From Eledone cirrhosa (taxonomy: Eukaryota), in the NCBI GenBank assembly GCA_964016885.1, contig OZ024754.1, positions 30,566,001 to 30,630,000 on the forward strand: DNA of 64,000 nucleotides. Direction: 5' to 3'. Positions 2,208 through 63,719 of this stretch are shown here, one piece after another (position 1 is the first letter of the stretch; each line of letters starts with the position of its first letter). The position numbers were made by a program, and so were the translations under genes. The notes below the pieces were generated by a model that searched no databases, was not told the origin of the DNA, and saw nothing but the letters and a program-made list of their open reading frames with translations.

Positions 2208-2530
2208 TATAAAGAAAAAAAGATGAAATCGAAAATGCAACTGGAGTCTTATTTTTAAAAAAATATATATATTTATTTGGTTCCTTTACCGGTTTCGCAG
2301 TTCTTCTGCTTTTCAAAAGTAGAGTTGAGATGGAGGGTCTGTGGTTTTTCTCACATGTGAGAAAAACCACAGACCGGTAAAGGAACCAAATAAATATATA
2401 CTTTTTTTTAAAAATAAGACTCCAGTTGCATTTTCGATTTCATCTTTTTTTCTTTATACTTTCACTCGTGTAGGACACCTCGGTTATTTTTCATTTTGTA
2501 AAAAAAAAAAAAAAACCTCACTTTCTAATA
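2208..2530. mobile_element. Fold-back HHR cassette family P1 (Penelope-like pLTR derivative), right arm internally deleted
   Basis: Inverted arms centred on ctcacatgtgag (2350-2361); TA runs on both sides; near-identical to 20449-20825. Confidence 0.75.
2283..2319 (-). ncRNA. Minimal type-I hammerhead ribozyme, U3/A8 variant
   Basis: ctt-TTGAAAA-gcag(aagaa)ctgc-GAAA-ccgg-TA-aagg. Confidence 0.7.
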
Positions 2531-2746
2531 TATATATATTCTTTTACCTGTTTCAGCCATCCGGCTGAGGCCATATATATATATATATATATATATATAT
2601 ATATATATATATATATATATGTATATAAGTATATATATATATATAAATTCTCTCTACCTGTAAAATATAGGTATGCTCACACACGTGTGTTTGTGTGTGT
2701 GTGTGTGTACGTATTTGTTTTCATGCCTCTTCCTATCAACATCATT

Positions 2747-2946
2747 TAATCCTTTAGCATTTAAACCACTCTTTCTGTTCAAACCAGCCGTAATCGGCTG
2801 CTCATGTTGATGTTAAAGTATTGTTCTCAAAATAAATAATATCAAAATCTCATAGATTTGATATTATGCGAGATAATTATGAGGTAAATTTTTACTTTAC
2901 TGTGAAAATATAATTGTAAATATAGAGTAATGTAAATATAGGTTAA
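2747..2946. mobile_element. TTAA-flanked MITE family 1 (piggyBac-like)
   Basis: ttaatcctttagcatttaaac...ggttaa; homologous to the interrupted copy at 37741-38512. Confidence 0.6.
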
Positions 2947-3274
2947 GTTCACAGTTCAACACCATGCCTGTGTCTGTATGATGAAGGTTATTACTAGTCT
3001 TTTCTAAGTCGATAATGATGATGATGATGTTCACAAAGAGTTAAAGTAAAATTAGAACAGTTTATTGATATATTCATATAGTTCATGGTCAGGTGATGTC
3101 GTGTGTTCATCTGAAGCATGTTTCTAATTAGTTTATTCCAATATCTGTATGATAAAGATGATTACTAGTTTTTCCTAAGTCCACAGCCCAACACCATGCC
3201 TGTGTCGGTATGATGAAGGCATATAATGCTTCACCCATGCTAGTATGAAAAGGTGGACATTAAACAGTGATAAT

Positions 3275-3465
3275 AATTGTTTCTACTTTTGGCACAAGGC
3301 CAGCAATTATCCCAGTGTATTACTGGTACTTTATTTTTTCGACCCTGTAAGGATGAAAGACCAAGTTAACCTAGGCGGGATTTGAACTCAGACCATAAAG
3401 GGCTGTAACTCTTTGCTGCAAAGCATGGCGTCCGACCCTCTAACAAAACTGTCAATCCACCACCC
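3275..3465 (-). mobile_element. SINE family A, full length
   Basis: B box gagttcaaatcc; flanked by TSD-like ttaaacagt(g/a)ataataat; a second partial copy follows at 3480-3610. Confidence 0.85.
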
Positions 3466-59099: not shown

Positions 59100-60720
59100 A
59101 TATTTATATATATGTATATATATATATATATATTTATATATATGTATATATATATATATATATATATATATATATATATATATATATATATATATATATA
59201 TATATATATATATATATATATATTTATATATATGTATATATATATATATATATATTTATATATATATACATATATATATATATATATATATATATATTTA
59301 TATATATATACATATATATATATATATACATATATATATATATACATATATATATATATACATATATATATATACATATATATATATATATATATATATA
59401 TGTATATATATATATATATATATATTTATATATATGTATATATATATATATTTATATATATGTATATATATATATATTTATATATATATATATATATATG
59501 TATATATATATATATATATATATATATATATGTATATATATATATATATATGTATATATATATATATATATGTATATATATATATATATATATATATATA
59601 TATATATATATATATATATATATACATATATATATACATATATATATATATATATATACATATATATATATATATATATATATATATATATATATATGCC
59701 CCCTCCCTCCACTCTGAAAAGCGTGAACCTAATAAACTACCATTTGTACTGCCTCTCTGTTTTTTGTTCCTGTCTAATATTTAACTATATATATATATAC
59801 ATACATATATATACATATATATATATATATATATATATATATATGTATATATATATATATATATATATACATACATATACATATATATATATATATATAT
59901 ACGTACATATATATATATATATATATATATATATATATATATATATATATATATATATACATACATATATATACATACATATATATACATATATATATAT
60001 ATACATACATATATATATATATATATATATATATATATATATATATATATATATATATATATACATATATATATATATATATATATATATATATATATAT
60101 ATATATATATATATATATATATATATATATATATATTTATATATATATATATATATATATATATATATATATATATATATATATATATATACATATATAT
60201 ATATATATGTATATATATATATATATATATATACATACATATATATATATATATATATATACATATATATATATATATGTATATATATATATATATATAT
60301 ATTTATATATATATACATACATATATATATATATATACATACATATAGAAGAGGAAGACCAAGGTTAACATATGTTGATGCCCTAAGGACAGACACTGGT
60401 CTGTTGGAGATGTAGGATATGACAGCGATAATGAGGGACAGAGACCGCTGGAGAGAACTCGTCCATGGATCTCGGGAATTTTACCCGCCTTAGATAGATA
60501 GATATATATATATATATATATATATATTTATATATATGTATATATAGATATATACATATATATATATATATATATATATATATATATATATATATTTATA
60601 TATATATATATATATACATATATTTATATATATGTATATATATATATATATAAATATATATATATACATATATTTATATATATATATATATATATATATA
60701 TATATATATATATATAAATA
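59100..60720. repeat. About 1.6-kb (TA)n field interrupted by small inserts
   Basis: Seen directly. Confidence 0.95.
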
Positions 60721-60726
60721 AATTTC

Positions 60727-63373
60727 AATAAATTTCAAAGCATATTACTTGATGCTTTCGACAGTAAGGAAGAACATTTAGAGTCGGACAATATAGAGGG
60801 ACAGTGGGAATTTCTGAAAGCAAACCTGCTGTTGGTGACAGACGAAGTCTGTAGCTGGAGCAGGCCTGTAGGCAGGAGGAGAGTAACATGGTGGTGGAAC
60901 AGTAAGGTGGAGGGGTCAATTAAGGCCAAAAAGCAGGCTTGGAAAGTATGGCGGGATGGGGGAAGTAGAGTAGACTATCAAGTGGCCAGGAGGGAAGCTA
61001 GGAGAGAAGTGTACTTAGCAAGAAGGGAAGCTGAGGAAAGAAAGTTCAAGCATGTTCTACAACGCGATGACCAAAAACGTGAGGTGTTCAGGATTGCTAG
61101 GCAATGCGTCAAGGAAAACCGTGATATTGTCGGGGAGAAGTGTGTACTTAACGATGATGGCATACTTGCCATCACCGACACTGATAAGAAGGTAGCTTGG
61201 AAGTGTCACTATGAAAGGCTACTAAATGAGGAGAATAAATGGGAGAAAGACAGTCTCCCCCATATCGACCCAATAGAGGGACCAGCAGTGTTAGTCGAGG
61301 GGAGTATAATAAGTAAGGCAATCAAGGATATGAAGACGGGTAAGGCGGCTGGGCCTTCGGAAATAGTTGCTGAGATGCTGAAGGCATCTGGCACGGTGGG
61401 ACACACCATGGTCACCCGCATAGTTAACCGAGTCGTACAGAATGGGGTTGTTCCGAAGGACTGGCATAGCAGCATCATCGTTAACTGTTATATGGGTAAA
61501 GGAGACGCCCTAGATAGGAGTAACTATAGAGGCATTAAATTAATCGACCAGGTCATGAAGGTCACGGAAAAAGTAATAGCGCAACTAATCAGAGAGAGAA
61601 TTGACCTAGATGAAATGCAGTTCGGGTTTGTGTCAGGCAAAAGTACCACAGACGCTCTTTTCATAGTACGACAACTACAGGAGAAGTACCTAGCAAAAGG
61701 TAAACCCCTCTACTTAGCTTTTGTCGACTTGGAGAAAGCCTTCGACAGAGTCCCCCGCTCCATTATCTGGTGGGCTCTTAGAAAACTAGGTGTTGACGAA
61801 TGGCTTGTGAGGGCTATACAAGCCATGTATAAAGAAACAGTCAGCAAGGTTAGAATTAACAACGAATATAGTGAAGAGTTTAGCGTAAAAGTTGGCGTCC
61901 ATCAGGGCTCTGTTCTCAGCCCCCTATTATTTATTATTGCTCTTCAGGCTATAACAGAGGAGTTCAAGACAGGCTGCCCATGGGAACTCCTATACGCAGA
62001 CGACCTGACACTCATAGCGGAATCAATGGCCGAGCTAGAGAAGAAATTCCAAACATGGAAGCACGGCCTAGAGTCAAAAGGACTTAAAATTAACCTGGCT
62101 AAGACCAAAGTTCTAGTTTGTAGGAAAGAAAACAAGGCGGCGGTCCCTTCTGGGAAATGGTCGTGCTTGGTGTGTAGGAAAGGCGTAGGTAGAAACTCCA
62201 TTTTATGTCCTAAATGCAAAGTATGGGTGCATAAAAGATGTAGTGGGATCACAGGTAAGCTAACTACGAACATAGATTTTACATGTGGCCGGTGTTCTGG
62301 TGCAATAAGTAGCAGCAAGTGCCCACAAAATACTAGCTCTTTCAATTGCGCAGAGGGTTCTATAGAAATAGTGGACAGCTTCCGTTACCTGGGCGATAAA
62401 ATCAGCAGTGGGGGAGGGTGCTCTGAAAGTACTGTAGCTAGAGTCAGAACTGGTTGGAAAAAGTTCAGAGAGCTTATACCACTATTAGCTGCTAAAGGGT
62501 TCTCCCTAAAAATGAAAGGCAGGTTGTACGATGCCTGCATACGAACAGTAATGTTGCATGGCAGTGAAACCTGGGCATTGTGTGCAGAGGATATACGCAG
62601 ACTAGAGAGGAACGAAGCTTGCATACTCCGCTGGATGTGTAACAGTAATATACGTGAACGGCAAAGCAGAAACGAACTAAGGAAAAAATTAGAGATAAGA
62701 GGGATCAGATGTTGTTTACTCGAGAGAAGGCTACGTTGGTATGGACACGTGATGCGCATGAAAGTCGATAGCTGTATAACAAAGTGCAGGGCAATAAAGA
62801 TAGACGGTAGTCACGGAATAGGCAGACCTAGAAAAACCTGGGACGAGCTGATAAACTCTGACATCACACACTTACACCTCTCCAAGACAATGTCACTGGA
62901 CCGAGACCTTTGGCGGTACTCAGTAACAGAGAAGACCCGCCTTACCTAAATATATATAGTAAAACCTACTCCAGCCAGTAGGCATCTCTAACAAAATACA
63001 CCCCGTCCCACCCCCACCACCCCCACCCCATCCACACCACCCCGTTCTATGTAAAGTTATGTTGGTGCCGCGCCATCCAGGCCGAAACAAATGAGATTGT
63101 GTAGGCCGAAACAAATGAGATCGTGTAGGTGTCACGACAAAAAAACACACAATCCACGCTGTAATGTGGCCGTGTAGGCAACACGGTAAAAACCTCCCAG
63201 ACCCACACTGTAAATGTGGTTGGTGTTAGGAAGGGCATCCAACTGTAGAAAACCTGCCAGACAGTCCTATGCGAGCAAGACAATCACTCTTGCCTCAAGT
63301 GGGACTACCCCCGTCCAAACCCATGCAAGCGTGGAACACGGACGTTAAACGTTGATGATGATGATGATGATGA
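60727..63373 (+). mobile_element. 5'-truncated RTE-clade LINE family A
   Basis: Long RT ORF, about 400-bp 3' UTR, (GAT)n tail, adjacent to (TA)n. Confidence 0.95.
60733..62949 (+). CDS. RTE ORF, partial: linker, reverse transcriptase, PHD-type finger, C-terminus; endonuclease lost
   Basis: [44 protein letters not shown]; frame is open upstream of the annotated start. Confidence 0.93.
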
Positions 63374-63672
63374 TATATATGAAATATAACATTTCTCCAC
63401 ACACAGACTATATCAATCATATAAAGAATTTATCATATAAAGAATGTGCGTGCCACACATATAACATTTGCACTATATAACCGCTTATCTTCATGTTGTA
63501 TTTTAACCTGTATTTTTGATTTTTGATTGTACCTCTTAATATGAATGTAATCTCGAAGTGTGTACTGCCACTCTAAATTCTGCAATGAATGTTGACCCAC
63601 AATATTTGCATATGTATCGGTATGTCTCTTGGCTGAAAAGGAGGTCATATAACTGTCCATGCATTAATAAAT

Positions 63673-63719
63673 TGCTCCGAAGAATCCAAACCTCGGTTTG
63701 GAGGAAACAGCTGTAAGCA
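63673..63719 (+). ncRNA. Minimal hammerhead-like motif, U4C variant
   Basis: tgct-CCGAAGA-atccaaac(ctcg)gtttggag-GAAA-cagctg-TA-agca; palindromic acagctgt. Confidence 0.7.

What the first reader, a model, noticed from the sequence alone, without database searches (positions are those of the whole stretch)
2208..63719. ORF-less, (TA)n-targeted hammerhead-ribozyme cassettes from about 9 families
Seen: about 15 type-I HHR motifs (2283, 6664, 8605, 9095, 10204, 11608/11707, 16534, 20586/20712, 22644/22694, 48517, 50005, 51006, 63673) plus half motifs. They sit in 100-900-bp non-coding islands bounded by TA runs, have unrelated primary sequence but the same fold, and several have AATAAA just downstream. 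Known: Penelope-like elements carry minimal HHRs in pseudo-LTRs that can be inverted and have a 3' tail. Inference: these are a diverse set of PLE-derived mini-elements, either non-autonomous retrozyme-like units or severely truncated insertions, that target (TA)n. No PLE RT or GIY-YIG ORF is visible in the window.
Basis: partly seen in the sequence, partly recalled or inferred. Interest (0 to 1): 0.9.

Follow-up and report, generated by a model that had tools for sequence, protein, structure and literature searches.

The report
Penelope retroelement ends with hammerhead ribozymes
The short non-coding islands between the TA repeats are mostly cut-off, often mirror-image ends of well-known jumping genes (Penelope-like elements), plus two small non-coding repeats that likely ride on them; each family carries a hammerhead-shaped RNA motif predicted to cut itself, so the finding is real but largely of a known kind.

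Summary
All 16 listed coordinates fall on hammerhead (HHR) motifs of dispersed repeat families. A descriptor finds 11 motifs (one a junction artefact) against 0.24-0.68 in shuffles. I count 11 families, not 9. Nine link to protein-coding Penelope-like (PLE) parents in the same genome: six of the Hydra clade (B, D, E, F, J, L; F only by inference) and three Neptune/Nematis-like (A, I, K). Their islands are 5'-truncated, often inverted 3' ends. Two families (C, about 1.8 kb; G, about 440 bp) are ORF-less head-to-tail units, retrozyme-like. (TA)n follows the 3' end in 311 of 419 copies (background 3.7%), but also follows 16 of 27 RTE tails. Hydra PLEs with HHRs and (TA)n preference, including an Octopus family, were published in 2021. 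U3-A8 cores and opposite-strand pairs were published in 2014. Cleavage and expression are untested. Back-to-back arms follow a short-end/long-end rule in 112 of 120 pairs. The scan noted this system before, elsewhere in this genome and in others.

The parts
2212..2528 (.). Family A head-to-head insertion; HHR with U3-A8 core on the minus arm (core 2316); core deleted in the plus arm; long (tail) end at 2528
6049..6771 (+). Family B (Hydra) 3' end: inverted tail 6049-6098, 3' UTR piece, HHR core 6672, short end
7178..7345 (.). Family J fragment, inverted short arm plus tail, HHR core missing
8556..8858 (+). Family C: 3' part of an ORF-less head-to-tail unit of about 1.8 kb; HHR core 8609, palindromic helix III, AATAAA follows
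8881..9736 (-). Family D (Hydra): minus arm with endonuclease C-terminus, 3' UTR, U3-A8 HHR (9092-9137, two stem substitutions) and tail; short inverted arm 9666-9736
9463..9666 (-). GIY-YIG endonuclease C-terminus (CxxC-E...N...CxH) of family D, 89% identical to the parent ORF piece in L077
9873..10117 (-).
10140..10359 (.). Family J (Hydra) palindrome centred at 10205 inside the HHR core; short arm left, tail arm right
11403..11894 (.). Family K (Neptune/Nematis-like) head-to-head pair; cores 11648 (minus, long arm) and 11713 (plus, short arm)
16528..16652 (.). Family E variant: short minus arm with core 16577 (helix I lost), plus arm tail only
16846..17053 (.). Family M head-to-head half-motifs (3' half of a U3-A8 HHR seen whole in L007); parent not traced
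20448..20821 (.). Family A (Neptune-like) head-to-head pair; U3-A8 cores 20619 (minus, long arm) and 20716 (plus, short arm)
22641..22826 (.). Family E (Hydra) head-to-head pair; cores 22687 (minus, short arm) and 22699 (plus, tail arm)
48482..48598 (-). Family F 3' end, HHR core 48563 with C4; likely sister family of L (Hydra)
49735..50076 (+). Family J: inverted tail 49735-49823, 3' UTR piece, HHR core 50010 (A at position 4), short end
50181..50288 (.). Family M head-to-head half-motifs
50876..51150 (-). Family G: truncated copy of an ORF-less head-to-tail monomer of about 440 bp; HHR core 51047, GAAA mutated to GACA in this copy
59719..59785 (+). Diverged 3'-terminal fragment related to family I, no HHR
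63380..63925 (+). Family L (Hydra) pseudo-LTR piece with an internal deletion; HHR core 63677 with C4; 99% identical to both pLTRs of the near-full-length copy L075

Best explanation
The islands are 5'-truncated, often head-to-head inverted 3' ends (pseudo-LTRs) of Penelope-like retrotransposons, plus two ORF-less head-to-tail units (C, G) that are likely mobilised by the same enzymes. SHOWN: each family is a dispersed repeat with a type-I HHR shortly before one of two fixed 3' ends. For eight families an RT or GIY-YIG ORF lies upstream on the same strand at some loci (B, D, E, J, L Hydra-type; A, I, K Neptune/Nematis-type); F is linked by likeness to L and an adjacent inverted Hydra RT. The 3' ends abut (TA)n, and paired arms carry one short and one tailed end. 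INFERRED: a GIY-YIG endonuclease nicks TA repeats and the RT primes there at the element's 3' end. It usually stops within a few hundred bases, or restarts on the other strand, which leaves short stubs and palindromes. PREDICTED, untested: the HHR cuts the tandem precursor RNA into unit-length templates, in several families as a dimer through a palindromic helix III.
For: L075 is a TA-flanked copy with pLTR, ORF (649-aa open stretch after one frameshift), 3' UTR and pLTR, 99% identical to window 63447-63925. Hydra diagnostics of PMC8557442 section 11 are met: RWR and DKT in L075 and L261; CxCx5C linker in L076, L077, L010 and L261 (first Cys pair altered in L075); a single Cys between GIY and YIG; CxxC-E and N..CxH. 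Parents of A, I and K have CxxC or Cx4C between GIY and YIG and a Cys-rich linker (CSRPRCNTC in L137, CIDKECITC in L141, only CGTC seen for A); GLKF and DKG in L135; Pfam GIY-YIG E=1.7e-6 and 5.5e-4. (TA)4+ follows the 3' end in 311 of 419 copies against 3.7% of background positions and 5% and 21% for two SINE controls. One nested copy has a 14-bp target duplication at a TATATATA site and no added TA run (L052). Inversion junctions vary within families. Exact-match counts: E 27,663, A 10,767, G 1,319; reversed controls 0. With N3 and N8 left free, 85 of 117 descriptor hits were C-G and 14 U-A, though they come from few families. C and G tails run into their own 5' start; periods 436-438 bp (G) and about 1,780 bp (C); longest ATG ORF in C 62 aa; no tblastn match to my PLE pieces.
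Against: There are no RNA or cleavage data. Four window copies are decayed at the motif. J has A4, and F and L have C4, in place of U4, so activity is uncertain. Pfam found no RT domain in the Hydra-type ORFs and GIY-YIG only at E=0.49. The clade calls rest on motifs read against a paper; no tree was built. TA adjacency is not exclusive: 16 of 27 RTE (GAT)n tails are also followed by TA. Only 1 clear target duplication was found among 64 copies lacking a TA run, so a pre-existing target is shown once and otherwise taken from the literature. Loci were chosen by similarity to the window copies (best 40 scored per search), except the pattern samples for E, A and G. One A junction recurs exactly at 363 loci.
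Confidence: 0.9

Rival explanations
1. All islands are independent non-autonomous mini-elements (retrozyme- or foldback-like) with fixed structure that transpose as such.
For: C and G are ORF-less tandem units. One A palindrome junction occurs exactly at 363 loci, and the best-matching A copies are 98-99% identical.
Against: Nine families link to PLE ORFs. Junction spacers vary: E -8 to 134, K 49 to 135, J -3 to 520. In 20 A matches taken in genome order the junctions differ, several cluster at one short micro-palindrome, and 7 have the full natural upstream. 363 junctions is small beside 10,767 A motifs.
Confidence: 0.07
2. The TA runs are not targets: they are tails added or grown after insertion, or simply so common that any element lies beside one.
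For: RTE tails abut TA in 16 of 27 cases. TA runs are very dense in the window.
Against: Enrichment is about 20-fold over background and the SINE controls are low. Both ends abut TA in 16 of 18 islands. L052 shows a target duplication at a short TA run with no added TA. (TA)n preference is published for Hydra PLEs.
Confidence: 0.1
3. The motifs are chance look-alikes in AT-rich palindromic DNA and are not ribozymes.
For: No Rfam HHR among the 150 hits shown. Weak folding z-scores. Altered U4 in three families.
Against: 11 hits against 0.24-0.68 in shuffles. The same position near the 3' end in unrelated families. C3-G8/U3-A8 swap. The T...T flank of helix II in C, E and J matches published Hydra HHRs.
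Confidence: 0.03

Closest known systems
Hydra clade of C-terminal EN+ Penelope-like elements, incl. Hydra-1_Obim (Craig et al. 2021, PMC8557442; abstract, passages, section 11, supplement part 2 and search hits read)
   Same: RT then GIY-YIG; RWK-like and DKT motifs; CxCX5C linker; no CCHH; CxxC and CxH around E and N; sense HHR near the 3' end with an extra base on both sides of helix II; (TA)n insertion; present in Octopus.
   Different: Five or six distinct families in one window against one listed for O. bimaculoides. 3' UTRs of 1-2.6 kb in B, E, J and L (L075 about 4.9 kb, against under 3 kb described). Tails mostly 58-163 bp (G 21) against the 30-40 bp described for PLEs. Cores with A4 (J), C4 (F, L) or U3-A8 (D) are not in the Hydra rows I read. 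No HHR here equals that of Hydra-1_Obim.
Neptune/Nematis-type PLEs (features as given in PMC8557442 passages)
   Same: GxKF and DKG motifs (A); CX2-5CxxC-type linker (I, K; partial in A); Cys pair between GIY and YIG with downstream His; microsatellite bias attributed to the linker.
   Different: Neptune and Nematis were not told apart here; K's RT looks divergent from A's.
Minimal HHRs of metazoan PLEs (Cervera and de la Pena 2014, PMC4209133; parts 1-2 of 4 read)
   Same: Thousands of dispersed motifs in many sequence families, mostly single or in opposite-strand pairs 100-700 bp apart; U3-A8 variant; extra base after A9; long helix II; palindromic helix III.
   Different: Several families here have a mismatch next to the core in place of the G10.1-C11.1 pair that the paper calls highly conserved. 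E and J have non-palindromic 4-bp helices III that could fold as monomers. Counts are higher (27,663 exact matches for E alone).
Metazoan non-LTR retrozymes (Cervera and de la Pena 2020, PMC7229834, passages; Li, Clavereau and Pollet 2026, bioRxiv 10.64898/2026.07.22.740005, part 1 of 5 and passages)
   Same: G: ORF-less, low GC, about 440-bp head-to-tail monomer with one type-I HHR. C: the same layout.
   Different: G and C are mostly dispersed truncated copies with PLE-type inversions and TA ends; only dimers and partial tandems were seen. C (1.8 kb) is far above the 150-450 bp range. Circular RNA untested. 'Octopus' has 0 occurrences in the main text of either paper.
Insertion architecture of EN+ PLEs (Arkhipova et al. 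2013, PMC3846280, passages)
   Same: Inverted pLTRs, head-to-head palindromes, a tail on one of the inverted pLTRs, pLTR sufficient for mobilisation in trans.
   Different: Here the one-short/one-long rule is counted at 112 of 120 pairs over ten families.

Membership tests
Type-I hammerhead ribozyme | Core C3-A9, G12-A14, A15.1-U16.1, H17 with three helices | tested here: met
   met by family majority, with variants U3-A8 (A, D), C4 (F, L), A4 (J); helix I weak in I; four window copies decayed or atypical
Type-I hammerhead ribozyme | Above chance | tested here: met
   11 against 0.24-0.68 in 25 shuffles each
Type-I hammerhead ribozyme | Covariation | tested here: inconclusive
   3-8 pair swaps between families (85 C-G, 14 U-A of 117); one A-T to C-G swap in E helix I in 2 copies; copies are not independent
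Type-I hammerhead ribozyme | Rfam match at gathering score | tested here: inconclusive
   no HHR among 150 of 464 hits shown; the list is filled by microsatellite noise
Type-I hammerhead ribozyme | Self-cleavage | not testable with these tools
   needs an in vitro assay
Hydra-clade PLE (B, D, E, J, L) | RT followed by C-terminal GIY-YIG, upstream of the HHR on the same strand | tested here: met
   L075, L076, L077 (EN and linker only), L078, L261/L263
Hydra-clade PLE (B, D, E, J, L) | RWK motif; DKG changed to DKT | tested here: met
   RWR and DKT in L and E; N-termini of B, D and J not reached
Hydra-clade PLE (B, D, E, J, L) | CxCX5C linker; no CCHH; CxxC and CxH around E and N | tested here: met
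   alignment A2; L075 has CNS for CNC
Hydra-clade PLE (B, D, E, J, L) | Insertion in (TA)n | tested here: met
   B 30/39, D 13/16, E 39/52, J 32/41, L 10/23
Hydra-clade PLE (B, D, E, J, L) | RT phylogeny inside Hydra | not tested
   reference sequences not available to the scripts; motifs compared by eye with the paper's alignment
Hydra-clade PLE (F) | Own ORF upstream on the same strand | tested here: inconclusive
   inverted Hydra RT (56-90% to L) beside F in 1 of 14 loci; HHR and tail resemble L
Neptune/Nematis-type PLE (A, I, K) | C-terminal GIY-YIG with Cys pair and His residues, CX2-5CxxC linker | tested here: met
   linker only partly seen for A
Neptune/Nematis-type PLE (A, I, K) | Clade by RT tree | not tested
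   no tree built
Non-LTR retrozyme (G, C) | No ORF; head-to-tail units with one HHR each | tested here: met
   G period 436-438 bp; 5 of 20 unbiased copies reach the unit start, 4 clearly preceded by G's own tail; C 3' end precedes its own start in most of 11 loci, period about 1,780 bp
Non-LTR retrozyme (G, C) | Monomer of 150-450 bp | tested here: inconclusive
   met by G, not by C (1,781 bp)
Non-LTR retrozyme (G, C) | Expressed as circular RNA | not testable with these tools
   see Tried and rejected
Naiad PLE | N-terminal endonuclease, no canonical HHR | tested here: not met
   EN is C-terminal and an HHR is present

The most novel reading that the evidence does not exclude
This genome runs a whole ecosystem of at least 11 HHR-bearing Penelope families with tens of thousands of ribozyme copies. 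In it, two ORF-less riders (a 440-nt retrozyme with three octamer-like repeats, and an unusually long 1.8-kb unit) make self-cleaved circular RNAs that Hydra enzymes insert into (TA)n. The near-strict short-end/long-end rule records priming from both nicked DNA strands. Successful families with A4 and C4 cores would widen the natural hammerhead consensus.
Probability: 0.3. Interest if true: 0.5.

Novelty: new member of a known kind. Interest (0 to 1): 0.25.

Why it matters
It shows that much of the 'unknown' DNA between TA microsatellites in this genome is Penelope-derived and undercounted: exact matches for three families alone sum to about 39,700 HHR motifs. It gives young, near-intact material (L075, 99% to the window copy) for two open questions, what the PLE hammerhead does and how PLE inversions form. 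It adds candidate retrozymes (G, C) and natural core variants that can be assayed. The classes, the targeting and the architecture are already in print, so the surprise is low.

Tried and rejected
A strict canonical descriptor found 1 motif, too strict for minimal HHRs. Rfam in E-value mode was swamped by microsatellite matches to miRNA models. Naiad origin was considered and rejected (C-terminal EN, HHR present). My early labels, Neptune for L/J/B/D and Poseidon for A/I (first notebook entry), were from recall and were corrected after reading PMC8557442 section 11. A DNA search with the E island gave 0 candidates because common words are skipped; a pattern search then gave 27,663. A master foldback element for family A is not favoured. 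Expression: no RNA holder listed for G; the one possibly-RNA contig set covered only the adjacent SINE; this says nothing on expression. The target-duplication search gave 1 clear case and 4 short or low-complexity matches among 64 copies. A paper on PLE HHR variants cleaving as dimers (Lunse et al. 2017, recalled) is not held, and a guessed id returned an unrelated paper; it may already cover U4 variants. A search for support of a newt satellite-2 octamer promoter (recalled) listed 3 papers, none read for this. Supplements of the bioRxiv preprint are closed and could list cephalopod retrozymes. Searches for cephalopod HHR/PLE papers returned PMC8557442 and an O. vulgaris repeat annotation (PMC13282606, passages: 31 recently active PLE families, 0 mentions of 'ribozyme').

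
Full report
SETTING. The window is G000:C14:30566001-30630000 in a 3.0-Gb genome of 1,796 contigs. It is 35% GC and dense in TA runs, with RTE-type LINE pieces and SINEs (the names are recalled). The repeat content looks octopus-like; this is recall plus the likeness of the ORFs to Hydra-1_Obim, not a tool result.

OBSERVATION. The 16 listed coordinates fall in ten families (A, B, C, D, E, F, G, J, K, L), and an eleventh (I, core 9989) was missed. 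A descriptor allowing C3-G8 or U3-A8, any base at position 4 and one unpaired base beside helix II found 11 motifs. Dinucleotide shuffles gave 0.24 (whole window) and 0.68 (300-bp blocks), 25 shuffles each. The descriptor was written after I had seen the motifs, so the contrast is somewhat flattered. One hit (9648) is a junction artefact. Four listed motifs pass only by alignment to their families. Rfam showed no HHR among 150 of 464 hits, and folding z-scores were -2.6 to +0.6; neither supports the motifs.

HHR ANATOMY. A and D have U3-A8 cores, F and L have C4, and J has A4. Helix III is palindromic in A, B, C, D, I and L, the layout that PMC4209133 links to dimers. C, E, F, G, J and L have an extra base on both sides of helix II. 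The T...T form in C, E and J matches the published Hydra HHR table. With positions 3 and 8 left free, 85 of 117 distinct hits in the fetched loci were C-G, 14 were U-A and 18 were other; these come from few families and are not independent.

PARENTS. Each island was searched in the genome and the flanks were read.
L: L075 holds TA, pLTR, ORF, 1.7-kb 3' region with pLTR, TA; it is 99% identical to the window island, with a 649-aa open stretch after one frameshift and RWR and DKT motifs.
J: a 525-aa RT-EN stretch upstream on the same strand in L076.
B: RT, linker and EN pieces upstream in L078, L002 and L008.
D: a 431-aa linker-EN stretch in L077; its C-terminus is in the window at 9466-9681 minus, 89% identical.
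E: L261 has the pLTR followed by an ORF with RWR, DKT and CxCx5C; L263 has a 92% identical piece 2.6 kb upstream of the HHR in both arms.
F: resembles L, and has an inverted Hydra-type RT beside it in 1 of 14 loci.
The motifs of these ORFs (alignment) are the Hydra diagnostics of PMC8557442 section 11. That paper's supplement lists Hydra-1_Obim with (TA)n preference and an HHR.
A, I and K lead to canonical ENs with a Cys pair between GIY and YIG and a Cys-rich linker: L131/L135, L137/L138 and L141/L158. Pfam GIY-YIG scores E=1.7e-6 (A) and 5.5e-4 (I). The Hydra-type ORFs gave no RT hit and GIY-YIG only at E=0.49.

ORF-LESS UNITS. Walking upstream of C in three searches led back to C's own 3' end: period about 1,780 bp in L273, longest ATG ORF 62 aa, no match to my PLE protein pieces. 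G has a period of 436-438 bp and 1,319 exact motif matches. Of 20 copies taken in genome order, 15 are 5'-truncated at varied points and 5 reach the unit start, 4 of them clearly behind G's own tail. G holds three 33-bp subrepeats with ATGCAAAT or ATGCAGAT; a promoter role is recalled from newt satellite 2 and is untested.

TARGET. (TA)4+ begins at the 3' end of the match in 311 of 419 copies (43-95% by family), against 3.7% of background positions not already in a TA run; two SINE controls gave 7 of 140 and 16 of 75. The RTE control in that call stopped short of the tail; a fair version gave 16 of 27, so TA adjacency is shared with RTE LINEs here. L052, an L copy nested in B, has a 14-bp duplication at a TATATATA site and no added TA; it was the only clear case among 64 examined.

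ARCHITECTURE. Each family except I shows two main 3' ends, short and tailed. After a lead from earlier scan notes I counted diverging pairs: 112 short+long, 5 short+short and 3 long+long, with one window pair listed twice. A tail on only one end is described in PMC8557442 and PMC3846280. Junctions vary. In family A one junction recurs at 363 loci among 10,767 motifs, and an unbiased sample shows several different junctions around the same micro-palindrome. This favours a recurrent snap-back point over a master element.

MECHANISM. Shown: sequence identity to PLE 3' ends, TA adjacency, fixed ends and inversions. Taken from published PLE biology: endonuclease nicking and target-primed reverse transcription. 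Inferred: early termination and strand restart make the stubs, and C and G borrow the enzymes. Predicted: HHR processing of precursor RNA; PMC4209133 found only low in vitro activity for minimal HHRs. No expression data were obtained.

VERDICT. Real, correctly guessed as PLE-derived, and mostly new families of known clades. Interest 0.25.

Noticed in passing
window 16846-17053 and 50181-50288; whole motif in L007: Family M: a very common TA-flanked element (matches in 34-36 of 321 sequences held) whose whole HHR has a U3-A8 core, a 54-nt helix II arm and a 6-bp helix III; only half-motifs in the window; parent not traced.
   Followed up: partly
window 17873-18535: A 95%-identical palindrome: a decayed head-to-head HHR pair (core reads CCAATGA...AAAA) of a further family, with an inverted SINE piece at its centre.
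   Followed up: partly
window 16282-16470: TA-bounded island with CTGATGA and a small hairpin but no GAAA; matches in 4 of 321 sequences. Possibly a decayed or unrelated motif.
   Followed up: partly
window 60718-62949 (+): A 743-aa open frame of an RTE-type LINE RT with an internal Cys-rich insertion; RTE fragments are also flanked by TA runs.
   Followed up: no
window 31401-35483, 35941-36464, 56759-58670: Tandem arrays with periods of 18, 32 and 50 bp.
   Followed up: no
window 4402-4682, 41827-41932, 48629-48819, 54758-54799: Further inverted repeats without an HHR core (MITE-like or RTE-end inversions); not classified.
   Followed up: no
L174, L069, L009, L003 and the census: More HHR families occur in the fetched flanks (for example cores CTGACGA and TTGATAA with other stems), and another Hydra-type ORF sits in B's flank (L003), so the genome holds more than the 13 families seen in the window.
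   Followed up: no
L201, L205, L206, L207, L213, L221: Six of 30 E matches on C1 share both flanks, so they lie in one duplicated larger unit and are not independent insertions.
   Followed up: partly
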